From Eubacteriales bacterium (GTDB lineage Bacteria; Bacillota; Clostridia; Oscillospirales; CAG-272), in assembly GCA_045659405.1 (NCBI GenBank), contig JAZOWX010000015.1, positions 9,143 through 73,142 of the forward strand: DNA of 64,000 nt, read 5' to 3'. The position numbers and the translations under genes are program-made. How positions within the stretch are numbered: position 1 is the first letter of the stretch; every line of letters begins with the position of its first letter. The notes under the pieces were generated by a model. It was not told where the DNA came from and did no database searches. It was given only the letters and a program-made list of their open reading frames with translations. Shown piece after piece: positions 4,182 to 59,328 of this stretch.

Positions 4182-5084
4182 ATGCTCGGATACGCAATAG
4201 AAAAGCCAAATACTATTCCCGAGGCGGTGTGGGCTCTGAAAACCTCTTTAAACGACTATTCCTGGAAGAACTCGAACTCGCCTGATATGATAGAAATTTC
4301 AATTTCAACCGTCACCGAGCGAACAACTCTGTACCCCGGCAAACCACCGAGAAAAATACACGGCACGGCAGTTTCCTGCATAGTCGGAGACGTTGAGGTG
4401 AGCAGCTTCTCGCCCAGGGGCGCTCGAATAGACGTTGCCTCGATTGCGGCAAAAATCCCCGAATTGCACTTTGATTTGCGTGAATTTTCCGAAGCGGATT
4501 TTGAAAACCTGGAGCTTATTCTTTTACCGTCAACTCTCGATTTTCTCAAAGAGAGTGAAATCTCGGAATTTGAAAAGCTGTTTATGAGATATACACACAG
4601 CTATATGGAAAAGAGCGCCTCGGCAAAAATTCTGTGCGGCGCTATATTCCTCGATATCCTTTATAGGCTTGACTCCTACGCAAGAGGCGGAAAGAGAGAG
4701 CCTGCAAGAGATAAATACGTCAGCTATTACGCACAAAAGGCAAGGTCGATAATTGATATGCGATATGCCGAGCGAATCACCCTCGCCTCGGTTGCAGAGG
4801 AGCTTGGTATAACGCCGGAATATCTTTCCACGGTTTTCAAAAGATGCGTGGGTGATAGCTTTTCGGAAAAGCTTTTCGAAAAGCGTATAGCCGAGGCACG
4901 CAGGTTTGCTTGTGAGAGCGCCCTCTCGGTTTCGGAAATTGCCGAGCGCACAGGACTTGGCGACGACAGCAATCTGCGACGCAGATTTAAGCAAAAATTC
5001 GGAATAAGCATCAGAGAATACCGTAGCATCGCAAAGGAGCAAACGCTCTATCACGAAAAGCCAACAAGAGATAAATGTAAATAA
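4182..5084 (+). CDS. AraC/XylS family transcriptional regulator
   Basis: ATG at 4182 after gaggggg. C-terminal double HTH: 'ITLASVAEELGITPEYLSTVFKR...SVSEIAERTGLGDDSNLRRRFKQKFGISIREYR'. Divergent from the GH28/SGNH gene. Confidence 0.85.
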   Translation: MLGYAIEKPNTIPEAVWALKTSLNDYSWKNSNSPDMIEISISTVTERTTLYPGKPPRKIHGTAVSCIVGDVEVSSFSPRGARIDVASIAAKIPELHFDLREFSEADFENLELILLPSTLDFLKESEISEFEKLFMRYTHSYMEKSASAKILCGAIFLDILYRLDSYARGGKREPARDKYVSYYAQKARSIIDMRYAERITLASVAEELGITPEYLSTVFKRCVGDSFSEKLFEKRIAEARRFACESALSVSEIAERTGLGDDSNLRRRFKQKFGISIREYRSIAKEQTLYHEKPTRDKCK

Positions 5085-19846: not shown

Positions 19847-20013
19847 AATAAAATCTCCCTGTGAATATTTATTTAAATTTTACCTATTGCTTTTTATGCA
19901 CTTTTATTATATAATGTTTTTGCGCAAAAGCAAAGCGAAAAATTGCTTGTTCTTAACACTAAATTGCTTTTTTCTCGTATTTTTCAAAAAAACAAGGATT
20001 GGAAGAGAAAAAT

Positions 20014-20871
20014 ATGATAAGATACGAAACCCACCTGCCGCTTATGAACAGCGACAAGCCGTTCAAGGAGCATCTTTCAAAAAGAGAGGCGGCGGACAAT
20101 TTCATAGTCAACTGGCACCAGAGCCTGGAGCTTCTCTACCTTGTTTACGGAGACGTTGAGGTTATAACAAACGACGTCGGAGTGCGTCTTTGCCCCGGCG
20201 ACGTGGCGGTGGTAAACAGCTCTTATATTCACGACATTATCTGCCACGAAAAATCGAGCTACTACTGCATTATAGTAAACATAGACTTTCTTTCAGGCTT
20301 CGGTATAAAGATAGACGAGATAGAGTTTGACAGACTCGTGCGCTCGGAGCGTGTAAAAAATCTTACCCTTGAGATTATGAAGATTTGCCAAGAAAAGTCA
20401 CAAGGCTATGAGCTTGTTGCAAAGGCGCATATACTCACACTTGCATCCGAGCTTTTCATCAAGCACTCAAAGCGGCGCGACGAGCTTGGGGGGCGTGACG
20501 GAAACGGAAAGCTTGACGTGGCAAAGGATATTATCAAATATCTTCAGCAAAACTATGCCGAAAAGCTCACGCTTGAAACTATATCGGATGCTGTTGGGTA
20601 TAATAAATATTACGTATCGCATATTTTTAAGTCGGTAGCCGGTGTAACGGTTATGACCTATCTCAATATGCTTCGTGTCTTTCACGCAAAGGAGCTTTTA
20701 AAGACGAAAAAATACACGGTTTCGGAAGCGTGCCGTATGTGCGGCTTCGAAAACCTGTCCTATTTCACAAGAACCTATAAAAAGCATATGGGAAAGCTTC
20801 CGAGCGCAGATTTTGAAAAGGAAGCCGAGCCGAAGGTCCAAAATAACGGTTGTGTCAGCTGCTATTGCTGA
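20014..20871 (+). CDS. AraC family transcriptional regulator (cupin N-domain)
   Basis: ATG at 20014 after ggaagag. C-terminal HTH 'LTLETISDAVGYNKYYVSHIFKSVAGVTVMTYLNMLRVFHAKELL...VSEACRMCGFENLSYFTRTYKKHMGKLP'. Divergent from the oxidoreductase/isomerase genes. Confidence 0.85.
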   Translation: MIRYETHLPLMNSDKPFKEHLSKREAADNFIVNWHQSLELLYLVYGDVEVITNDVGVRLCPGDVAVVNSSYIHDIICHEKSSYYCIIVNIDFLSGFGIKIDEIEFDRLVRSERVKNLTLEIMKICQEKSQGYELVAKAHILTLASELFIKHSKRRDELGGRDGNGKLDVAKDIIKYLQQNYAEKLTLETISDAVGYNKYYVSHIFKSVAGVTVMTYLNMLRVFHAKELLKTKKYTVSEACRMCGFENLSYFTRTYKKHMGKLPSADFEKEAEPKVQNNGCVSCYC

Positions 20872-20903
20872 CAGAAAAACGATAGAGGTAAGGACTCCCT
20901 CCG

Positions 20904-20952
20904 TCATTTCTGCGAAATGCCACCTCCCTCGGTGATGGAGGCTAAAAAGCCA
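20904..20952 (+). repeat. Three-arm hairpin element, copy A
   Basis: actccctccgtCATTTCtgcGAAATGccaCCTCCCTCggtGATGGAGGc. Has a small 6-bp hairpin plus a C-rich/G-rich terminal hairpin, followed by taaaaa. Confidence 0.8.
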
Positions 20953-20962
20953 CCGAGCGCAG

Positions 20963-21024
20963 ATTTTGAAAAGGAAGCCGAGCCGAAGGTTCAAAATAAC
21001 GGCTATGTCGGCTGCTATTGCTGA
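20963..21024 (+). repeat. Untranslated duplicate of the last 62 nt (including stop) of the AraC gene
   Basis: 20810-20871 and 20963-21024 differ at only 4 of 62 positions. Confidence 0.9.
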
Positions 21025-21044
21025 TGGAAAAGGCACCTCATCCA

Positions 21045-21090
21045 CCGCTTTGCGGTCCCCCTTCCCCCACTGGGGAAGGCTAAAATGGCT
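21045..21090 (+). repeat. Three-arm hairpin element, divergent variant (copy B)
   Basis: acctcatccaCCGCtttGCGGtcCCCCTTCCCCactGGGGAAGGc. Same architecture as copy A but different sequence, followed by taaaat. Confidence 0.65.
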
Positions 21091-21145
21091 TATTAATTGC
21101 CACTGATGATAACATATCCCAATATCCCAAAATGGGGGTAAAATT

Positions 21146-22501
21146 ATGAAAGAAAAAATTTTTGATTTGCTCGAAAATCGCAAGCTCGCTGAGCTGAAGC
21201 CGGTTGTTTCGGAAATGAACGAGGTTGAGCTTGCAGAGATTTTCGAAGAGCTTGAAAAGGAGCAGCGCACGCTGCTATTCAGGATACTGCCAAAGGATTT
21301 GGCTGCCGAAACCTTTGTCGAGCTTGAAACCGATACAAAAAAAGCGCTCATTGAGGCGCTTACAGACCGTGAGCTTGGCGAGGTCATAAACGAGATGTTT
21401 GCCGATGATACGGTTGACCTTATCGAAGAAATGCCCGCAAACGTCGTGAAAAGGCTTTTGCGCCAGAGCAACAGCGAAACGAGAAAGACGATAAACGAGC
21501 TTTTGCGTTACTCAAAGGACAGCGCAGGAAGCATTATGACAACCGAGTTTATCTCGCTTTTCCGTGAAATGACGGTAGATGAGGCGCTGGCTAAAATCAA
21601 GCACCGCGCGATAGACTCCGAGACAATTTACACCTGCTACGTTACAGACGGCGCAAGACGGCTGGAGGGCTTCGTTACGGTAAAGGCGCTGCTCCTTGCC
21701 GACAAGGAAAGAAAAATTTCCGAAATTATGGAAGAAAACGTAATCTTTGCGCACACAGACGACGGGCGAGAAGAGGTTGCCCGTATGCTTGCCGATTACG
21801 ACTTCCTTGCCCTGCCGATAGTGGACAAAGAAAACCGCATTGTCGGTATTGTCACAGTCGATGACGCTATGGACGTTATCGAGGAGGAAACAACCGAGGA
21901 TATCGCAAAAATGGCGGCGGTATTGCCAACCGGTGTTCCATACCTGAAGCGCGGTGTTTTTGCAATATTCAAAAGCCGTATTCCCTGGCTTCTTCTGCTT
22001 ATGATAAGCGCAACCTTTACAGGTCTTATAATCAACAGCTTTGAGTCAAGGCTCAACGCAATATCGTCTGTACTTTTTGCCGTAGTGCCTATGATGATGG
22101 ACACGGGCGGAAACTCCGGCTCGCAGGCATCTGTAACCGTAATTCGTGCGCTCTCGCTCGGTGAGCTTGAAATCAGCGACGTTTTCCACGTGCTGTGGAA
22201 AGAGCTTCGGGCATCCCTGCTGCTCGGTATCACCCTCGGTGCCGCCTGCTTCTTAAAGCTTCTCGTTATCGACAATCTGCTCTTTGGATTTTCGGACTAC
22301 ACGCCGATTCGCTGTCTTGTTATTTCGTTAGCGCTCGTTGTAACCGTAATTATAGCAAAGCTCGTCGGCTGCACCCTGCCCATACTCGCAAAGCGGTTAC
22401 GGCTTGACCCTGCGGTTGTAGCTTCACCGTTTATTACGACGATAGTTGATGCGCTTTCCTTGATGCTCTACTGTTCGCTGGCAGTAGCGATTTTGTCGTA
22501 A
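21146..22501 (+). CDS. mgtE: Magnesium transporter MgtE
   Basis: 451 aa with an N-domain, a CBS pair and a TM domain containing 'MMMDTGGNSGSQASV'. Confidence 0.9.
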   Translation: MKEKIFDLLENRKLAELKPVVSEMNEVELAEIFEELEKEQRTLLFRILPKDLAAETFVELETDTKKALIEALTDRELGEVINEMFADDTVDLIEEMPANVVKRLLRQSNSETRKTINELLRYSKDSAGSIMTTEFISLFREMTVDEALAKIKHRAIDSETIYTCYVTDGARRLEGFVTVKALLLADKERKISEIMEENVIFAHTDDGREEVARMLADYDFLALPIVDKENRIVGIVTVDDAMDVIEEETTEDIAKMAAVLPTGVPYLKRGVFAIFKSRIPWLLLLMISATFTGLIINSFESRLNAISSVLFAVVPMMMDTGGNSGSQASVTVIRALSLGELEISDVFHVLWKELRASLLLGITLGAACFLKLLVIDNLLFGFSDYTPIRCLVISLALVVTVIIAKLVGCTLPILAKRLRLDPAVVASPFITTIVDALSLMLYCSLAVAILS

Positions 22502-22671
22502 ATAAACTCCCTCCGTCATTTCTACGAAATGCCACCTCCCTCGGGGATGGAGGCGAAAAATGCGCTTTCCTTGATGCTCTACTGTTCGCTGGCAGTAGCG
22601 ATTTTGTCGTAAATAAACTCCCTCCGTCATTTCTGCGAAATGCCACCTCCCTCGGGGAGGGAGGCAAAAAC
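22450..22671 (+). repeat. Two tandem 111-bp units, each made of the mgtE 3' end plus a hairpin element (copies C and D)
   Basis: 22450-22560 and 22561-22671 differ by about 3 positions. Element copies lie at 22506-22554 and 22617-22665. The real mgtE stop is at 22499-22501. Confidence 0.9.
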
Positions 22672-22765
22672 TGCTCACTTACAGTTGAAATTTTGTAGTA
22701 AATAAAAAACATCTCGGCTTATATGATATTGCCCTTTGGGGTTTTATCATGCCGAGATGCTTTTT

Positions 22766-24067
22766 TTATTTTTGGTCCTTGCGTATTTCCTCACGCTTGA
22801 TTTTGTAAATTTCTTCGGTTGCAAAGCCGAGCTTTGTTACCACGTTTTCTTTGGTGGGATAGCAATAATACGAGTCGTTTGCGATAGAGATATCAAAGCA
22901 GTCATACGGCTCAATATAGCAGTAATCATACTCAATATGCAAACTATTGTTTTCAAGAGGTTGTCTTTGTATCCTGTAATCCTCGCCACGGTAATGCCCC
23001 TCAAGAACAAATCCCTCCTCGGGATTGTGACGCAATTTTGCATCACCGAGATACTCGAAGCGCCAACATCTTGGGAGCGAATAAACACGCACGTCATCAG
23101 AAAATGAATACTCACCGCGCAGAATCTGCCCACGCACCTCGCTACGCTCCCACTCGTACCAATCGGGCACGTGTGAAAACTCGGTTTCGCCATTGTTTGC
23201 AGAAAGTGTGCCGTCGGTATTCAGCGTCCAGCGCTTGCCGCACTCGGTACAGAATATTTCAGCGCCCGACGAGGACATTTTCGACTCGGTTTTACAGCTT
23301 GGGCATTGATAAAGTATTTTATGAAGCCCCTCGGCACGGTATGGTTCGGTTATCTGTATGCCGTTTTCACGCTGATATTTATATTCGTCATACTGAAGCG
23401 CCGCCTTTATTTTCTCGTATATCTCGTCAGCAGACATATTTTTCACGTCATCTGCCGTCAGTATCTGCGTTGCGGTTGTATGAAGCGGCACTTTACGCTT
23501 CTTTCTGAAATTCCAGAAGGGTGTGTGCAGGTGATTTCCACGGTGAACGACTGCCACAACCGGCACCTTACACATTTTAACAAGCGAGCCGAGCGACTCC
23601 GGCATATATGCCGTCGTACCCGATGCCGAATATCTTGCCTCGGGGTACATTGCGAGGATATCACCCCTGTCAACAACCTTTCTTATCGACTTTACAAGAT
23701 GAAAATCGTTGACAAACTTTCTTGTGCATATTGCGCCAATCCATTCAAGAAGCCAGGGGCGTCTGTAATATCCGTCAATATTTACCACGTTATTGACACG
23801 GTATGGGTGGGTTATCTGCGAGGTAAGCTCAAAGTCAATAAAATACTGATGATTGCTGAGTAGAATATACGGCGGCTTCAGGCCCTCCATATTTATTTTT
23901 TCAATCTTGTATTTTTTACCGATAAGAAGTATCTTGGAAAGTATCCATATCAGCCATTCGAGATACCACGGCTGTCTTATCGGGTATTTTGCGGTTTTGT
24001 ACCGCTTTTTGTTTTTGTAGTTGACTTCCTTGTTTGCTTTGTTCATATCATTCATAATGCCATCCAA
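22766..24067 (-). CDS. Lysophospholipid (PlsC-type) acyltransferase family protein with a C-terminal extension
   Basis: 'LLSNHQYFIDFE' (HX4D acyltransferase motif) and 'YPEARYS'. The C-terminal half contains CPSC...CTEC (zinc-ribbon-like). Confidence 0.7.
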   Translation of the reverse strand: MDGIMNDMNKANKEVNYKNKKRYKTAKYPIRQPWYLEWLIWILSKILLIGKKYKIEKINMEGLKPPYILLSNHQYFIDFELTSQITHPYRVNNVVNIDGYYRRPWLLEWIGAICTRKFVNDFHLVKSIRKVVDRGDILAMYPEARYSASGTTAYMPESLGSLVKMCKVPVVAVVHRGNHLHTPFWNFRKKRKVPLHTTATQILTADDVKNMSADEIYEKIKAALQYDEYKYQRENGIQITEPYRAEGLHKILYQCPSCKTESKMSSSGAEIFCTECGKRWTLNTDGTLSANNGETEFSHVPDWYEWERSEVRGQILRGEYSFSDDVRVYSLPRCWRFEYLGDAKLRHNPEEGFVLEGHYRGEDYRIQRQPLENNSLHIEYDYCYIEPYDCFDISIANDSYYCYPTKENVVTKLGFATEEIYKIKREEIRKDQK

Positions 24068-54298: not shown

Positions 54299-55665
54299 TC
54301 GGTATCTCCGTTTCACAGTTTTCTGCGGCTTGTAAGGCTACAATATTTTTGCATATTTATTCATTTTTGCGTTTTCAAACATCTGAGCTATCGAACTAAA
54401 AAAATCGCATCCAAAGGCGATGAGCTGTACAGCCACACAAACCGATATAAGCCAACATAAGAATTATACATCAACAAAGCGCAAAGGTCAAGAGCCGAAG
54501 CATCAATGGCAAAAAACAAAACCAAAAAACAGAAAAAACAAAACCAAAAACAAAAAGCAAAAAAACAAAAAGCAAAAGCAAAAAAACAAAATATCAACCG
54601 TCGCAATCAGTCACACAGAAAGCTGCCTAACGAGCGGCAAAGCCAAAAGCCGCAAAGCTCCCTCAAGCACCCTGCAAAAAAGAGGACAGAGCCACCGTTC
54701 AAAAGCGCCCCGAAAGTGTAGTACAAAAAGACGACCTAAAATCGCCCAAAAAGCACCCTAAAAGCGAGCACGAAAAAGAACAGCCAAAACTGCGCGCACA
54801 AAAAGAAGTACATCACCAGCATCACCCCAAAAGCGTAGTGCAAAAAGAAGAACAGCGCCAAAATTTGCACAGAACGCTTCGGATAGAAAAACGCAAAAAT
54901 CCAAAAAGTTCCGCTAACAGCAAAGCAAAAAACGCAGCAACCCAAAGGAAGCAGCTGCGATAAAGGGGCAAAAAGCACCCTACGTCTTGTCACACAAGAC
55001 ACAAATCCAAGGCAGGAAAAACAGGGAACGTCTGTGCTTATTTATTCTTCTCTGTGCATTTTTATTCACCAATATAAGGAAATTTACTTTCGCACAAATT
55101 ACGAATTAAGCCACAAATTCACAGCAAAAATCGGTGCAAAAATCAGCTTTAAAACACGCCCTTTCGTAAAAGTTACAATCAAAATATGCAAAAACGCCAA
55201 AAATTTGTGCAAAAATCACCCGAGCAAAACAAATTTTCCATTTTTTGTCATAAAAGCCCATATTTTGCCATATTTTACCTTTTAAATCGCAAAATTTGCT
55301 TTTTCTAACAAAAAGAGCTGCGAAGCGCCACGGATGCCTCAAAAAACAGCCAAAAAACACACTAAAAGATCAAAAAACGTGGCAAAATAGCGTAAAAACA
55401 CCGAAAGCATGTCAAAAATACATCAAAACACACTGAAATACCACCCGAAGACCACACCCAAACACACCGCAACGGTTTAAAAAAGGATAAAAAGCGGCAA
55501 AAACAGCAGTAAATATCGGATTTTTGGACAAAATCAGCGCAAATTACCGCAAAAAAACAAACAAAAAGTTGCAGAAAAGGCGGCAATTTCAGGTAAAGGA
55601 AGCAGAGCAACCGCCACGGCTCTTGGCACAGCCACAAGCATTTGCCAAGCCAAAGCGCAAGAAAA

Positions 55666-55681
55666 TGTTTCACGTGAAACA
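55666..55681. promoter_or_regulatory. parS site 1 (perfect)
   Basis: TGTTTCACGTGAAACA, matching the Firmicute parS consensus tGTTNCACGTGAAACa. Confidence 0.85.
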
Positions 55682-55879
55682 CCCAAAAATCAAGCTTTAC
55701 CCACAAAATAGCCATATTTTGCTCAAAAAACAGCGTTTACCTGCATTTTTTCACGGTTTTTGTGCGGATTTTACCGATTTTGAGCTGTTGTGTGGCTCAA
55801 AAAGCGCCCCCTTGGGGTGAAATGCAGCCAAACAGCTAGATTTCAATCGTATATACCACAGTAACACCAGTGGCGCAAT

Positions 55880-55895
55880 TGTTTCACGTGGAACA
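55880..55895. promoter_or_regulatory. parS site 2 (one mismatch)
   Basis: TGTTTCACGTGgAACA. An extra GTGAAAC half-site lies at 55899-55905. Confidence 0.7.
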
Positions 55896-55924
55896 TTTGT
55901 GAAACCATATAGTTATCGAGGATT

Positions 55925-55940
55925 TGTTTCACGTGAAACA
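55925..55940. promoter_or_regulatory. parS site 3 (perfect)
   Basis: TGTTTCACGTGAAACA. Confidence 0.85.
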
Positions 55941-56417
55941 TTCGGCTCATCCGGACAGCCACGAGGGCTTGTTTTGTGATAAAAATCCGATTGTCCAAGT
56001 GTTGTGCAGAGGCAACGTGTGCCAGAGGCGCAAAAGCGGATATATAGCTGTGTTTGACCGATTTTGTGTCTTTTCAGCGTTGTTTTGCAAACTTTGGGCG
56101 GATTTTATTGTGTTTTTGTTGCGTTTCGCCGTGCTTTTGATGCGTTTTTGCCGTTTTGTAGCCTTGTTCTCTGTTTTTTTACCACCAACAACCGCTCTTT
56201 ACAGGCTTTGAGCTTTGCTTGTTCAAAGCTGCGCCTCACCTGTTTCTTGATACTGCCGCATCAGCAACTCCTCAGCTCACAACCTCTCGGCGCACGCCCT
56301 CGGTTTACAAACCTTGACTTACAGCCCTCGACTTACAATACATAGCGCACAGCGCTCAAAAGCAACACCAGTGGGTTTAAGATTGTTTAAACTTATTTAA
56401 ACACCCACACAATTTGA

Positions 56418-56433
56418 TGTTTCACGTGAAACA
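56418..56433. promoter_or_regulatory. parS site 4 (perfect)
   Basis: TGTTTCACGTGAAACA. Confidence 0.85.
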
Positions 56434-56479
56434 TATAGCTTTGCGCAGAAAAAGCGGTCAATTCAGGCGCTTTGCGCCG

Positions 56480-56495
56480 TGTTTCACGTGAAACA
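56480..56495. promoter_or_regulatory. parS site 5 (perfect)
   Basis: TGTTTCACGTGAAACA. Confidence 0.85.
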
Positions 56496-56835
56496 TTTGC
56501 TTTTTTACATCTAGAAGCCGCCACTTGACTTTGAACAGCCTTTTATCTTTTGAAGTCGCTATACAAAACAACACAAAAAGAACACAAAAAGCAAACATAT
56601 AGATAAATAAAAATGAAACCGTACACAGCGCAACCAACAAGCGGGGTGGCAAGGAAATTCAAAAAAGAGAGCAAAGATATCACCAAAACATAGTACAAAG
56701 CAGCTCGAACCTTGCCAAAATACTTTTAACGGTCTTTTTTTGGTTATACTTCGCCATTGAGCTATTGATTTCCCCGGTTTTTCTTTGCTGTGCGTCAATT
56801 AATTACCCGTTTCGCTTTACTGTGCAGTGATAAAT

Positions 56836-57084
56836 CTACGGTTTCACTCCGCCACAAAGCAATCGATTCCTCTTTTTTTGCTCTGTTATGCACCAAACAA
56901 CCCCACACTTCGCTTCGTTATGGAGCAACAAGCTCCCCTTTCTACTCTGATATGCGATAATAAACCCCTGATTTCACTTTGCTACGAGCAACAAGCTCCC
57001 TTTTTTGCTCTGGTATGCGATAACCAACCCAGGATTTCACTTTGCTACGGAGCAATCAACCCCTCTTTTTGCTTTGGTTTGTAG
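56836..57084 (+). repeat. About 4 tandem copies of a 62-66 bp repeat
   Basis: Units start at 56873, 56939 and 57001, with partial units at both ends. The shared core is ttttttgctctgNtatgcNa...(g/a)tttcac...gc(t/c)ac...agcaa...ctccc. Confidence 0.8.
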
Positions 57085-57201
57085 TAAATTCATTGCTGTT
57101 TTAGCTTCAAATCCCGTGTTTTGCTTTTCTTTGCGGTTCTTTCATTTTTATTGTATATTTATATACTATATATAATTATAAGGAAGATTTTTTTATTTAT
57201 A

Positions 57202-57230
57202 TTGACAAAGTCTTGCACTTTTGATATAAT
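57202..57230 (+). promoter_or_regulatory. Consensus sigma-A promoter upstream of soj/parA
   Basis: TTGACA (57202-57207), a 17-nt spacer ending in tga, then TATAAT (57225-57230). Embedded in an AT-rich tract at 57120-57240. Confidence 0.7.
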
Positions 57231-57278
57231 AATTATGTGAACTTATAACTTCTAACCGATTGGAGTAGCTTTTATTCT

Positions 57279-58040
57279 ATGGGAAAGGTTGTTTCTTTTT
57301 CTAACCAGAAAGGCGGCGTAGGAAAAACCACGTCCTGCGTCAATATTTCAGCACAAATAGCCAATAAGGGCAAAAAGGTGCTTATGATAGATATGGACCC
57401 TCAAGGCAATGCAACGAGCGGTCTTGGAATACAGAAATCAAAGATTAAAAAGACAATATACGACGTAATTATCGGAAAATGCGACATAAAAGATGCTATT
57501 ATCAAGACAAATTTCAAGAATTTGTCCGTAGTTCCGGCAAATATTGACCTCGCAGGCGCTGAAATAGAGCTTCACGACCTTGAGGAAGCGGAAAACTTCA
57601 CCAAGCTTGCGCTCGATTCGATAAAGGATAGCTTTGATTACATATTTATAGACTGTCCCCCCTCACTCGGAATGCTTACCGTAAAGGCTCTTACCGCTTC
57701 TGACGGTGTTGTAATACCGATGCAATGCGAATTTTACTCGCTTGAGGGTATGTCACAGCTTTTAAATACAGTAAAGAGAATAAGACAGCTCTATAATCCC
57801 ACGCTCCAGGTTGTCGGAATACTGCTCACAATGTACAACGGCAGACTCACTCTTACCTCCCAGGTTGTTGCGGAGCTTAAAAAGTACTATTCGGACAAGC
57901 TGTTCCGTGTTCCGATTTCAAGAACAGTAAGACTTTCGGAAGCTCCGGGTTACGGTGAGCCTATATGCTATCACGACCCCTACGGAAAGGGCGCTCTTGA
58001 GTATGCAGCCGTTTCAAAAGAGCTTATGATGCGCATTTAA
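57279..58040 (+). CDS. soj: Chromosome partitioning ATPase ParA/Soj
   Basis: 253 aa. Deviant Walker A 'SNQKGGVGKTTS', plus 'MIDMDPQGNATSGLG' and 'IFIDCPPSLG'. Confidence 0.9.
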   Translation: MGKVVSFSNQKGGVGKTTSCVNISAQIANKGKKVLMIDMDPQGNATSGLGIQKSKIKKTIYDVIIGKCDIKDAIIKTNFKNLSVVPANIDLAGAEIELHDLEEAENFTKLALDSIKDSFDYIFIDCPPSLGMLTVKALTASDGVVIPMQCEFYSLEGMSQLLNTVKRIRQLYNPTLQVVGILLTMYNGRLTLTSQVVAELKKYYSDKLFRVPISRTVRLSEAPGYGEPICYHDPYGKGALEYAAVSKELMMRI

Positions 58041-58093
58041 AGCGATAAAAAGCCGATTTTCTTACAAAATCAAACGAGTGTGAAACACTAAAA

Positions 58094-58194
58094 GACAGCA
58101 AAAAGATAGCAAAAAGACAATAAAAAGACGGCAAACAGACAGCAAAAAAGTCAGTAAAAAGTCAGTAAAAAGTCAACAAAGATACGACAAAAAA
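58094..58194 (+). repeat. Nine tandem ~11-bp A-tract units in the soj-spo0J spacer
   Basis: gacagcaaaaa gatagcaaaaa gacaataaaaa gacggcaaaca gacagcaaaaaa gtcagtaaaaa gtcagtaaaaa gtcaacaaa gatacgacaaaaaa. Confidence 0.85.
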
Positions 58195-59145: not shown

Positions 59146-59251
59146 TCGAAGATTTGCAAATATTTGTTGTCAAAAATCCGACTTTTCATATAAAATTTGC
59201 GAAGGCAAACCGTGTTTTTTCGCAACAAACCAACCGCAAATCAAATTTAAT

Positions 59252-59328
59252 TTAATCATAAATCAACTGTAATTTAATTATAAATCAACTATAAGCTAAT
59301 TATAAATCAATCATAAACTAATCATTTT
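59252..59328 (+). repeat. About 3.5 AT-rich direct repeats of ~22 bp
   Basis: ttaatcataaatcaactgtaat / ttaattataaatcaactataagc / taattataaatcaatcataaac / taatcatttt. Confidence 0.75.

What the first reader, a model, noticed from the sequence alone, without database searches (positions are those of the whole stretch)
20810..21095. Hairpin element inserted after the AraC gene together with a second, untranslated copy of the gene's last 62 nt
- The layout is X (gene end plus stop, 20810-20871), a 32-nt linker, element A (20904-20952), taaaaagcca, X' (20963-21024, 4 of 62 mismatches), then element B (21045-21090).
- Element B shares the architecture of A but not its sequence.
- A simple tandem duplication would copy the same element twice, which is not what is seen.
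- The pattern instead looks like insertion of an ~90-nt cassette with a very long (~62 nt) target duplication, or recombination-driven 3'-end replacement.
- The X/X' differences change two C-terminal codons (NNGCVSCYC versus NNGYVGCYC), so the event also swapped the protein's tail.
Basis: partly seen in the sequence, partly recalled or inferred. Interest (0 to 1): 0.7.

Follow-up and report, generated by a model that had tools for sequence, protein, structure and literature searches.

The report
Hairpin repeat insertions duplicating gene ends
A small, widespread double-hairpin repeat has landed just after the stop codons of two neighbouring genes, and each landing left an extra, untranslated copy of the gene's last 35-86 bases; this unusually long footprint keeps the gene intact and points to an insertion route not yet described.

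Summary
An 86-nt block (20793-20878, the araC-family gene end with its stop) recurs at 20946-21031 (78/86 identical), with element A between the copies and element B after the second.

The same pattern occurs at the next gene, mgtE: gene end, A, gene end, A, then a third decayed copy (22449-22701). A and B are not unique. They belong to a very large family of ~50-nt two-hairpin interspersed repeats in gut and rumen Clostridia and their phages, with look-alikes in Proteobacteria and Planctomycetes. Rfam has no matching family.

Relatives supply empty sites. They also supply an independent case: B plus a 48-nt duplicate at mgtE, absent in strains 1-4 SNPs away. The same insert is 100% identical in a lineage whose flanks differ by ~5%, and there it is flanked by that lineage's own duplicate.

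In the two polarised mgtE cases the downstream copy looks like the displaced original end. In the window it decays (all changes G/C to A), while the translated copy changed only synonymously.

Best reading: insertion of a mobile hairpin element coupled to a long, variable target duplication. Only such outcomes are viable at a gene's 3' end. The enzymology is unknown, and rivals remain open (an old duplication with gene conversion and deletion, or slippage). The claimed "tail swap" is unproven.

The parts
20014..20871 (+). araC-family regulator gene (ATG at 20014; an alternative TTG lies at 19999). It has a Cys-rich C-terminal tail and its stop is at 20869-20871.
   Evidence: ORF list. Homologues carry PF12833, PF02311 and PF00165. 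The Cys-rich tail is conserved in orthologues.
20793..20878 (+). X: the translated copy of the 86-nt repeat, made of the last 76 nt of the gene, the stop, and CAGAAAA.
   Evidence: the repeat finder family D1; BLAST E = 3e-27. It is identical to the gene end of strain L001.
20879..20894 (+). 16-nt filler between X and element A (ACGATAGAGGTAAGGA). It is not part of the family consensus.
   Evidence: Sequence. Element boundaries were derived from 113 chromosomal copies. A loosely similar stretch precedes the A-like copy in L005.
20895..20948 (+). Element A, a double-hairpin repeat: head CTCCCTCC, hairpin 1 GTCATTTC/GAAATGcC, hairpin 2 CCTCC...GGAGG, tail GC-TAAAAA. The tail overlaps the AAAGC microhomology at the start of X'.
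   Evidence: Subfamily members were found.
20946..21031 (+). X': the untranslated second copy of the araC gene end, 78/86 identical to X, with its own TGA.
   Evidence: translation.
21034..21085 (+). Element B, a double-hairpin repeat of the CCTCATCC...CCTTCCCC...GGGGAAGG subfamily. The identical 47-mer follows the gene directly in strain L001 and sits at the mgtE end in relatives L242 and L244.
21146..22501 (+). mgtE magnesium transporter gene.
   Evidence: ORF. Homologues carry PF03448, PF00571 and PF01769.
22449..22505 (+). mgtE X1: the translated gene end (last 50 nt plus TAA) followed by ATAAA. It is the first unit of the 111-nt tandem repeat.
   Evidence: TRF; BLAST.
22507..22559 (+). 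Element A1, a copy of A with loop TAC and tail GCGAAAAA.
22560..22616 (+). mgtE X2: an untranslated copy of the gene end, identical to X1 over 57 nt.
22618..22670 (+). Element A2, a copy of A that differs from A1 at 3-4 positions.
22671..22701 (+). mgtE X'': an old, decayed copy of the last 31 nt of mgtE, lying next to the native terminator. It shares derived states with the window's own gene. Its 5 private changes are all G/C to A, and one creates a stop.
   Evidence: 0 of 2000 shuffles reach the score; polarisation with outgroups.
22710..22767 (+). Native mgtE terminator (CATCTCGGC...GCCGAGATG plus a T-run). It is homologous to the terminator in relatives and has been pushed about 210 nt away from the stop by the insertions.
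   Evidence: Sequence; alignment to L242 and L367.

Best explanation
**What it is**
A and B are copies of a short (~50 nt), non-coding, double-hairpin interspersed repeat. The family is mobile or otherwise copy-spreading, and is abundant in gut and rumen Clostridia and their phages.

In this lineage such elements have entered repeatedly just downstream of the stop codons of the araC-family gene and of mgtE. Each entry was coupled to duplication of the last 35-86 nt of the gene, stop included. The result is: gene end, short filler, element, A-rich tail, second copy of the gene end, native downstream DNA.
- At mgtE, where the copies can be polarised, the downstream copy is the displaced original end. 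It is no longer translated and decays.
- The upstream copy keeps the reading frame closed, so the gene survives.

**How it most likely works (inferred)**
The element is not pasted by a transposase with a fixed stagger. It is captured at a break or stalled fork:
- The nascent strand switches to an element copy elsewhere, or a fragment is captured.
- Synthesis then re-engages the original template 35-86 nt back, at a few bases of A-rich microhomology, and recopies the gene end.
- Return points ahead of the departure point would delete target bases. At a gene's 3' end only the 'duplication' outcomes leave a working gene, so only these are seen there.
- The + strand here looks like the lagging strand, so araC and mgtE would face the replication fork head-on. 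That would place stalls at their 3' ends.
- Later, the direct repeats allow the element plus one copy to be deleted.

**Shown versus inferred**
- Shown: the structures, family membership, filled and empty alleles, and which copy is ancestral at mgtE.
- Inferred: coupling of insertion and duplication in a single event, and the template-switch or capture mechanism.
For: **The pattern recurs**
- araC: X-A-X'.
- mgtE: X-A1-X-A2-X''.
- All four family members found in the 64 kb lie next to a gene-end copy, and the three A copies separate successive copies.

**Independent event in relatives (93-94% MgtE identity)**
- L242 and L244 carry X, CGATGCTTTGA, B, AAACTGCT, X', then native downstream sequence.
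- L367 and L368 differ from the filled alleles L241, L242 and L244 by only 1-4 SNPs in ~2.6 kb. They hold one gene end and no element.
- X' equals the empty allele, including its TAA stop and the adjoining AATGACTCCCC also seen in orthologue L002.

**Identical insert in a diverged background**
- L241 and L243 share a 142-nt insert with 0 differences.
- Their flanks differ by about 5%, and by 7 of 51 nt within X.
- Each insert is flanked by its own lineage's version of the duplicate.

**Independent origin in the window lineage**
- X'' shares derived states with the window's own gene, so this duplication arose separately.
- X'' then changed 5 times, all G/C to A, including a new stop.
- The translated copy changed 3 times, all synonymous third positions.

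**Deeper relatives have empty sites**
- Relatives at 83-88% identity have empty sites at both genes.

**A and B behave as discrete units**
- Conservation ends sharply at CA-CCTCATCC...GGGGAAGG-CTT.
- Hairpin 1 is kept as a perfect stem of at least 5 bp in 90 of 107 B-type and 56 of 80 A-type middle segments. About 5% of shuffles reach this, and more than 40 different arm sequences are used.

**Signs against a fixed-stagger transposase**
- Duplicate lengths vary: 31-35, 48, 57 and 86 nt.
- Junctions carry filler nucleotides, and 1-5 nt of microhomology with the A-run tail.
- Phage filled/empty pairs show 4-35 nt replaced or a 5-7 nt duplication.

**Local duplication is enriched at elements**
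- 11 of 117 chromosomal B copies score at least 40 in the flank test, against 3 of 702 random and 1 of 377 intergenic control positions. Most are arrays, and some include unique flank.

**Context**
- No transposase, integrase or reverse transcriptase was found among the 30 ORF products scanned (nearly all of the larger ones), nor in the already-typed genes next to the site.
- GC skew is negative over 1-58 kb.
Against: - **Not a family-wide footprint.** Outside this clade no gene-end duplicate was seen among about 400 family members. Four phage filled/empty pairs lack long duplications. The long duplication is at most one possible outcome.
- **The 'empty' alleles may be secondary.** L367, L368 and L001 could arise by recombination between the direct repeats. 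That route needs no extra mutations for L367, whereas the insertion direction needs two (GCG to GCA and TAA to TGA in the upstream copy), unless those bases came in with the insert.
- **The araC copies are too diverged for a recent event.** X and X' differ by 9%, while the strain lacking A (L001) differs from the window by only 1.3%. Either the event is old and L001 lost it, or the copy was made from or into a diverged template.
- **A rival fits the L241/L243 comparison too.** X and X' co-varying between these lineages is also what an old duplication with gene conversion would give.
- **Small sample.** The evidence rests on four or five events in one small clade, and all of the window's elements lie within 1.8 kb.
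- **Untested steps.** The head-on orientation is inferred from skew and gene orientation only. No DnaA-box cluster was found. No enzyme or intermediate has been identified.
Confidence: 0.5

Rival explanations
1. One old duplication per site, followed by gene conversion and repeated deletion. The gene-end duplicate with an element in the middle arose once, long ago, in each lineage. X and X' are then kept alike by gene conversion. The elements are swapped or homogenised by conversion from other genomic copies. The 'empty' alleles (L367, L368, L001) are precise deletions between the direct repeats.
For: - L367 equals what a crossover in the 35-nt identical block of L242 X and X' would give, with no extra mutation needed.
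- L001 looks like an X/X' hybrid: X-type SNPs followed by the X'-type 'TG' and then B.
- X and X' co-vary between L241 and L243.
- The nested-insert allele of B is shared across lineages.
Against: - The 142-nt insert, including 11 nt of non-element filler, has 0 differences between lineages whose flanks differ by about 5%. An old neutral insert should have diverged, and conversion from other element copies cannot homogenise the filler.
- This scenario still needs an original insertion-plus-duplication event, so it changes the timing rather than the nature of the event.
- Deeper relatives are empty.
- The window's duplicates arose independently of the L242 lineage's.
Confidence: 0.2
2. Ordinary replication slippage or unequal exchange, provoked by a hairpin already present after the stop codon. 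This duplicates the unit [gene end + element] in tandem, and later turnover changes one of the elements.
For: - The mgtE repeat in the window is a clean 111-nt x2 tandem array with the same element in both units.
- Arrays of [element + flank] units occur in other genomes: L255, L246, L307, L130.
- There is microhomology at the junctions (AAAGC at araC).
Against: - L242 has X-B-X' with no second element, and the native sequence follows directly after X'.
- The araC site has A in one unit and B in the other, and the two cannot be aligned outside hairpin 2.
- A1 and A2 differ at 3-4 of ~55 nt, while the adjoining 57-nt gene-end copies are identical. This point is weak (P about 0.06).
Confidence: 0.15
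3. Replacement of the gene's 3' end by recombination with foreign DNA (homology-facilitated illegitimate recombination). An incoming allele carrying [gene end + element] recombined by homology inside the gene and joined illegitimately, leaving the resident end behind as X'.
For: - The araC X and X' differ by 9%, mostly by transitions, with synonymous and non-synonymous changes mixed.
- The upstream copy in L242 differs from the empty allele only by 'silent' changes (GCA, TGA).
Against: - No donor-type SNP tract leads into the insert. L242 versus L367 shows 3 SNPs in 2.6 kb, none near the junction.
- X1 and X2 at mgtE are identical.
- Duplicates carry their own lineage's SNPs on both sides of an identical insert.
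- The window's translated araC tail is the same in L001, which lacks A.
Confidence: 0.08
4. A functional arrangement. The spare copy acts as a template or reserve for changing the protein's C-terminus, either like a diversity-generating retroelement or as a recombinational switch. Alternatively, the elements act as 3'-UTR regulators and the copies are selected for.
For: - The layout resembles the variable-repeat, hairpin, template-repeat order of such retroelements.
- X and X' at araC encode different tails.
- L001 shows that recombination between the copies happens.
Against: - No reverse transcriptase was found among the 30 ORF products scanned.
- The differences are not at adenines of the putative template.
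- The mgtE copies are identical or plainly decaying, with an in-frame stop and changes all to A.
- The targets are housekeeping-type genes.
- The elements are not terminators: an A-run, not a T-run, follows the hairpin.
Confidence: 0.04
5. Assembly artefact: two strain alleles were stitched in tandem.
For: The source is probably a metagenome-type assembly, and the Logan contig L001 breaks inside B.
Against: - The junction sequences (element tail joined to an internal gene position) cannot be produced without reads that contain them.
- The same kind of structure is present in four or more independent assemblies from different samples and assemblers, L241-L244.
- The copies carry distinct SNPs.
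Confidence: 0.03

Closest known systems
REP / BIME / REPIN elements (repetitive extragenic palindromes, mobilised by RAYT Y1 transposases)
   Same: - Short, GC-rich, hairpin-forming and non-coding.
- Many copies, lying between genes and often just after stop codons, sometimes in arrays or inverted pairs (L005, L178).
- Associated with local tandem amplification.
   Different: - Two different hairpins in tandem plus a conserved C-rich head, and no GTAG-type head.
- The stem of hairpin 1 is hypervariable.
- Found in phage genomes and across phyla.
- No RAYT was found here.
- To my knowledge, REPs are not reported to leave 35-86-nt duplicates of gene ends.
Bacterial MITEs (for example Correia, RUP, BOX, ERIC)
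   Same: - Small, non-autonomous-looking interspersed elements with defined ends.
- Presence/absence polymorphism between strains.
- Frequent location in 3' intergenic regions.
   Different: - No terminal inverted repeats.
- No fixed short target duplication: the footprints seen range from replacement of 4-35 nt, through a 5-7 nt duplication, to duplications of 31-86 nt.
Template-switch or break-repair insertions (FoSTeS/MMBIR-type templated insertions; variable target duplications of non-LTR retrotransposition)
   Same: - Variable-length flanking duplication.
- Filler nucleotides and microhomology at the junctions.
- An A-rich 3' tail at the junction.
- Some copies lack a 5' extension that others have.
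   Different: - These mechanisms are described mainly in eukaryotes or as one-off rearrangements, not as the spreading route of a bacterial repeat family.
- There is no evidence here for an RNA intermediate or a reverse transcriptase.
Integrative elements that duplicate a gene's 3' end (tRNA/tmRNA-type att sites); also CRISPR repeat duplication by Cas1-Cas2
   Same: The target gene stays intact because the insert is flanked by a direct repeat that includes the gene's 3' end. The duplicate has the length scale of an att site or a CRISPR repeat (tens of nt).
   Different: - The insert is only ~55-80 nt and encodes nothing.
- The duplicate is a copy of the local target rather than a sequence carried by the element.
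- No integrase or Cas genes lie nearby.
Diversity-generating retroelements (variable repeat at the gene end, hairpin, template repeat)
   Same: The order of parts: gene 3' end, hairpin, non-coding near-copy of the gene end.
   Different: - No reverse transcriptase was found.
- Mismatches are not adenine-specific.
- The repeats are short.
- The copies are identical or decaying.

Membership tests
REP/REPIN-RAYT | A single 20-40-nt imperfect palindrome with a conserved 5' tetranucleotide head (GTAG-like). | tested here: not met
   The elements have a C-rich head plus two distinct hairpins, and no GTAG head.
REP/REPIN-RAYT | Tens to hundreds of extragenic copies per genome. | tested here: inconclusive
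   Only 4 copies lie in this 64-kb window, and the rest of the genome is not available. The family as a whole returned at least 120 stretches per scan.
REP/REPIN-RAYT | A cognate RAYT (Y1 HUH transposase) gene, usually flanked by REPs. | tested here: inconclusive
   None was found among the 30 ORF products scanned with Pfam, which include nearly all of the larger ones. A single-copy gene elsewhere in the genome cannot be excluded.
REP/REPIN-RAYT | Inverted doublets (REPINs) as the mobile unit. | tested here: not met
   All four window copies and the L242 copy are single and in the same orientation. Inverted pairs exist elsewhere, in L005 and L178.
MITE | Terminal inverted repeats. | tested here: not met
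   The consensus ends, CACCTCATCC... and ...GGGGAAGGCTT, are not inverted copies of each other.
MITE | A target-site duplication of fixed, short length. | tested here: not met
   Footprints are 31-86 nt here. In phage filled/empty pairs they are a 0-7 nt duplication or a 4-35 nt replacement.
Diversity-generating retroelement | A reverse transcriptase gene next to the template repeat. | tested here: not met
   No reverse-transcriptase domain was found in the flanking genes or among the 30 ORF products scanned.
Diversity-generating retroelement | Variable/template repeat mismatches confined to adenines of the template repeat. | tested here: not met
   The four core mismatches are C/T, T/C, G/A and A/G.
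Integrative element with an att site in a gene's 3' end | The insert carries an integrase and its own copy of the gene end (attP). | tested here: not met
   The insert is 66-78 nt (142 nt with the nested piece). The duplicates match the recipient lineage, not the insert.
Simple tandem duplication | Two head-to-tail copies of one and the same unit. | tested here: inconclusive
   Met for mgtE in the window (111 nt x2). Not met for araC, where A differs from B, nor for L242, where X-B-X' has no second element.
Intrinsic terminator | A GC-rich hairpin followed by a U-run on the transcribed strand. | tested here: not met
   Hairpin 2 is followed by an A-run on the gene strand. The scan does not call A or B, and the real terminator lies at 22710-22767.
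Any Rfam RNA family | A match to a curated covariance model. | tested here: not met
   There were 0 hits at gathering score in the window. Only chance-level hits (E of 0.05 or more) appeared in 20700-22800.

The most novel reading that the evidence does not exclude
These double-hairpin repeats may spread by a route not yet described, one that makes long (about 30-90 nt), variable target duplications. It could be fork-stalling and template switching at the 3' ends of head-on genes, or an unknown site-directed nuclease or integrase.

Such insertions would be tolerated right at, or even inside, the stop codon, because the gene end is regenerated. The same small cassette could then enter the same site independently in lineages about 5% apart. 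Displaced gene ends would become a datable fossil record of insertions and an occasional source of new C-termini.
Probability: 0.3. Interest if true: 0.75.

Novelty: new variant of a known kind. Interest (0 to 1): 0.6.

Why it matters
- **An unexplained abundant feature.** Short hairpin repeats are among the most common unexplained features of bacterial genomes. For this very widespread family (gut and rumen Clostridia, their phages, and look-alikes in other phyla) neither a name nor a mechanism could be found in Rfam or in the searched literature.
- **A handle on the insertion chemistry.** Clear filled/empty allele pairs with an unusually long footprint that regenerates the gene end give a concrete way to study how such elements insert.
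- **How compact genomes tolerate insertions.** The footprint shows how insertions at gene boundaries can be tolerated.
- **Practical consequences.** The pattern explains spurious small ORFs and assembly breaks at these sites. It also warns annotators that 'extra' gene-end copies are by-products of insertion, not genes.
- **A testable link.** If the connection to head-on replication-transcription conflict holds, it would tie repeat spread to fork stalling.

Tried and rejected
- **Known RNA families.** Rfam gave nothing at gathering score and only chance-level hits.
- **Terminator reading.** Rejected: no T-run follows the hairpins, and the real terminator lies further downstream.
- **DGR-like template repeat.** Rejected: mismatches are not at adenines and no reverse transcriptase was found.
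- **Exact A core in public collections.** 0 hits in 185,579 species genomes and 0 in viral contigs. There was 1 hit in JGI metagenomes, unexpectedly in a high-GC tolB-pal contig and without a duplicate.
- **Third copy of the araC end after B.** Not significant: 755 of 2000 shuffles reach the score.
- **Gene-end duplicates elsewhere.** Tested among about 400 family members from viral and genome collections. Only arrays of elements or of composite units turned up.
- **Consensus structure by MAFFT plus RNAalifold.** Failed because the hairpin arms are misaligned. Replaced by a direct stem count against shuffles. No covariance model was built.
- **Exact look-ups of the small ORFs that cross the elements.** Not on record. 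The window's own MgtE was also not retrievable by exact look-up, although it is in the protein collection.
- **Filler and nested insert elsewhere.** The L242 filler plus B junction, and the nested insert, were found only at this locus in L241-L244.
- **Literature.** Six searches run (a seventh and eighth failed on term format), on Clostridia repeats, REPIN/RAYT, long target duplications and template-switch insertions, found no description of this family or footprint. The Bradyrhizobium REPs are different sequences.
- **DnaA-box cluster to fix the origin.** Not found.
Full report
**1. The observation**

The layout described is in the sequence.
- The araC-family gene (20014-20871) ends inside an 86-nt block, 20793-20878. 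That block recurs at 20946-21031 with 78/86 identity and a spacing of 153 nt. Self-BLAST gives E = 3e-27.
- The second copy would encode ...NNGYVGCYC instead of ...NNGCVSCYC.
- Between the copies lie 16 nt of filler and element A (20895-20948). After the second copy comes element B (21034-21085).

**2.

- A 28-nt core of A occurs twice more in the window, where none is expected by chance.
- Both extra copies sit in a 111-nt x2 tandem repeat at the end of the next gene, mgtE (22449-22674, 96% matches). Each unit is the last 50 nt of mgtE, TAA, ATAAA, and element A.
- Directly after the second unit lies a third, decayed copy of the gene end (22671-22701). It is 27/35 identical, and 0 of 2000 shuffles reach its score. 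The native terminator follows at 22710-22767.
- A structure-based scan finds only these four elements in the whole 64 kb. Every family member in the window therefore lies next to a gene-end copy, and the three A copies separate successive copies.

**3. What A and B are**

They are two subfamilies of one large family of ~50-nt interspersed repeats.
- *Architecture.* A C-rich head (TCCCTCC or CCTCATCC), a variable hairpin 1, then a C-rich arm, a loop and a G-rich arm forming hairpin 2, ending in GGC and an A/T-rich tail.
The B subfamily also hit the limit in species-representative genomes.
- *Hosts.* Oscillospiraceae, Acutalibacteraceae, Lachnospiraceae, Christensenellales, Ruminococcus, Butyrivibrio, Selenomonadaceae, and even a Flexilinea MAG.
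- *Defined ends.* In 113 chromosomal copies conservation stops sharply at CA-CCTCATCC...GGGGAAGG-CTT, as expected for a discrete unit.
- *Hairpin 1 is conserved as structure, not sequence.* 90 of 107 B-type and 56 of 80 A-type middle segments have a perfect stem of at least 5 bp. About 5% of shuffles do. More than 40 different arm sequences are used.
- *Orientation.* Elements occur in both orientations relative to genes, with a roughly 2:1 preference for the sense orientation upstream of a start codon.
- *No known identity.* Rfam has no match. The elements are not terminators, because an A-run follows hairpin 2.
- *Look-alikes in other phyla.* They occur in unannotated human-faecal phage records and in plasmids of Xanthomonas sacchari (the sufC-sufB spacer), Planctomyces and Pleomorphomonas. 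An almost exact A core occurs in a high-GC tolB-pal metagenome contig.
- *Literature.* My searches found no description.

**4. Comparative evidence at the two sites**

*Deeper relatives.* araC and mgtE are syntenic in relatives. Orthologues at 83-88% identity have neither elements nor duplicates: the araC-mgtE spacers are 27-132 nt against 274 nt here, and a terminator follows mgtE directly.

*Strain L001.* This strain is 98.7% identical to the window (1407/1425). Its gene end carries the window's X-type SNPs and is followed directly by B. It has no A and no second copy.

*The 93-94% relatives.*
- L242 and L244 carry, at the mgtE end, X (stop TGA), CGATGCTTTGA, an element identical to the window's B, AAACTGCT, X' (48 nt, stop TAA), and then the native downstream sequence.
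- L241 and L243 have the same layout, with a further ~83-nt piece nested in B.
- L367 and L368 differ from L241, L242 and L244 by only 1-4 SNPs in ~2.6 kb. They have a single gene end and no element.
- The downstream copy X' equals that empty allele. The upstream copy differs at two silent positions, GCA and TGA.
- L241 and L243 share a 142-nt insert with no difference, although their flanks differ by about 5% and by 7 of 51 nt within X. Each insert is flanked on both sides by its own lineage's version of the gene end.

*The window's mgtE copies, polarised with outgroups.*
- X'' shares derived states (ATT TTG) with the window's own gene, so this duplication arose in the window lineage, independently of the L242 event.
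- Since then the translated copy changed three times, all synonymous third positions.
- X'' changed five times, all G/C to A, including a new stop.
- That is the signature of a functional copy next to a decaying pseudo-end.

**5. Is the long duplicate a general footprint of the family? No.**

- About 400 distinct family members from viral and genome collections were tested. Similarity between upstream and downstream flanks came only from arrays of elements or of composite units (L101, L103, L178, L246, L255, L307). None came from a duplicated gene end.
- Such local repeats are nevertheless far commoner at elements than at control positions: 11 of 117 score at least 40, against 3 of 702 random and 1 of 377 intergenic positions.
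- Four filled/empty pairs among phage contigs show 4, 16 or 35 nt of target replaced, or a 5-7 nt duplication (GGTGA).
- The target alteration is therefore variable: deletion, short duplication or long duplication.

**6. Most likely mechanism**

*Shown.* The structures, the family membership, the filled and empty alleles, and the downstream copy being the ancestral end at mgtE.

*Inferred.*
- Insertion and duplication happen in one event.
- Variable duplicate length (31-86 nt), filler nucleotides and 1-5 nt of A-rich microhomology at the junctions all argue against a transposase with a fixed stagger. So do the variable footprints elsewhere. They point instead to capture or copying of an element at a break or stalled fork, with re-engagement of the original template some tens of nt back.
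- At a gene's 3' end only such backward returns regenerate an intact reading frame, so selection leaves only these. In L242 and L243 the junction seems to lie inside the stop codon (T|AA), and the insert supplies GA to remake TGA.
- GC skew is negative across 1-58 kb, and most genes between 22.7 and 54 kb are on the minus strand. araC and mgtE are therefore probably lagging-strand, head-on genes, and a fork would stall at their 3' ends. This is an inference only; no DnaA-box cluster was found.
- No transposase, integrase or reverse transcriptase was found among the 30 ORF products scanned with Pfam, which include nearly all of the larger ones.

**7. Rivals**

- *An old duplication kept similar by gene conversion, with 'empty' alleles produced by deletion between the repeats.* This is the strongest rival.
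  - It needs no extra mutation to derive L367, and it explains L001 as an X/X' hybrid.
  - It does not explain a 142-nt insert, non-element filler included, that is identical across lineages about 5% apart.
  - It still needs an initial insertion-plus-duplication event.
- *Plain slippage.* It fits the 111-nt x2 array, but not X-B-X' in L242 or A versus B at araC.
- *Import of a foreign 3' end.* It lacks any donor SNP tract.
- *A DGR-like or switching function.* It has no support.
- *Assembly artefact.* It is excluded by the junction sequences and by independent assemblies.
- *Unresolved point.* The 9% divergence of X and X' at araC, against 1.3% between the window and L001, is explained only by assuming the araC event is old and L001 lost it, or that the copy was made from or into a diverged template.

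**8.

- 'Insertion with a very long target duplication' is the best-supported reading, although it is not a family-wide footprint.
- '3'-end replacement by recombination' is disfavoured.
- 'The protein's tail was swapped' cannot be shown. The translated tail is the same in the strain without A. The conserved C-x-G-C-Y/C motif of orthologues matches each copy at only one of the two variable positions.

**9. Novelty**

- The element type is REP- or MITE-like, a known kind. It fails the defining tests of REP/REPIN, MITE, DGR, integrative elements and terminators.
- The recurrent 31-86-nt gene-end duplication coupled to its insertion is, as far as I could find, undescribed.
- I rate it a new variant of a known kind, with moderate to high interest. 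The mechanistic part rests on few events in one clade.

Noticed in passing
L005 630-760 (JGI metagenome contig Ga0307414_10199784): A high-GC tolB-pal locus, alphaproteobacterium-like, carries an element whose head, hairpin 1 and C-rich arm match the window's low-GC element A exactly at all 26 specified bases of the 27-nt search pattern. A second family member sits next to it in inverted orientation. Sharing this particular hairpin-1 variant across phyla suggests recent horizontal spread or very strong constraint.
   Followed up: partly
L369 395-445 (Xanthomonas sacchari plasmid NZ_CP010410.1, sufC-sufB spacer); L370 398-450 (Planctomyces plasmid): Elements of the same architecture occur in Gammaproteobacteria, Alphaproteobacteria and Planctomycetes plasmids. 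One example is CCCTCATCCGGCGCTTCGCGCCACCTTCTCCCAGAGGGAGAAGG. They are unannotated in those records. The family appears to be far broader than Clostridia.
   Followed up: partly
L241 3895-3977 and L243 3895-3977: Element B at the mgtE end is split by an ~83-nt nested piece, GTTCTCGCTGCGG...GACAGTCCACTGGACTGTC...CGCTTCGCTA, which replaces 4 nt (TTCC) of hairpin 2. It is present in L241 but absent in L242 and L244, which are near-identical strains. It is identical in the diverged L243. It was not found in any other fetched locus or in IMG/VR.
   Followed up: partly
window 22468-22501 (and the copy at 22579-22612): The three synonymous changes that the window's mgtE end acquired create a terminator-like hairpin (CTACTG...CAGTAG, or TCGCT...AGCGA, followed by TTTTGT) inside the last codons. 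The insertions have pushed the native terminator about 210 nt away, so this might be a replacement terminator, or it might be chance.
   Followed up: no
window 54316-57279: A ~3-kb stretch without long ORFs lies just upstream of a parA-like gene (57279-58040). It contains A-rich periodic repeats (54510-54591) and a 63-nt x3.1 tandem array (56874-57073). Gene orientation flips here and cumulative GC skew flattens beyond ~58 kb. It could be origin-proximal, but no DnaA-box cluster was found.
   Followed up: partly
window 58090-58194 and 59238-59322: Further short tandem arrays (AAAAGACAGCA x8, and a 22-nt unit x3.9) lie between and after the parA-like and following genes.
   Followed up: no
L241 2370-2394, L242 420-443, L367 945-961: In the 93-94% relatives the araC-family gene appears to be decaying. 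An A8 run (A7 in L243) shifts the frame and removes the Cys-rich tail, and the called product is only 169 aa. In the 88% relatives (L365, L366) the gene is absent altogether.
   Followed up: no
L246 (oriented minus strand) 4660-5070: A 228-nt unit is duplicated between B elements in an Eubacteriales MAG. The unit contains a run of short hairpins, each preceded by CAATATAACTG. This is an unrelated-looking repeat array of unknown nature.
   Followed up: no
L010 1258-1340 versus L044 2450-2475 (phage contigs): An ~85-nt insertion carrying a B-type element sits between a stop codon and the next gene's start. It duplicates GGTGA, that is the stop plus part of the ribosome-binding site. The downstream gene therefore keeps a ribosome-binding site after the insertion.
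   Followed up: partly
window 32923-36699 (minus strand): A 1258-aa ORF has internal 72-nt-spaced coding repeats (36403-36517). It was not scanned against Pfam.
   Followed up: no
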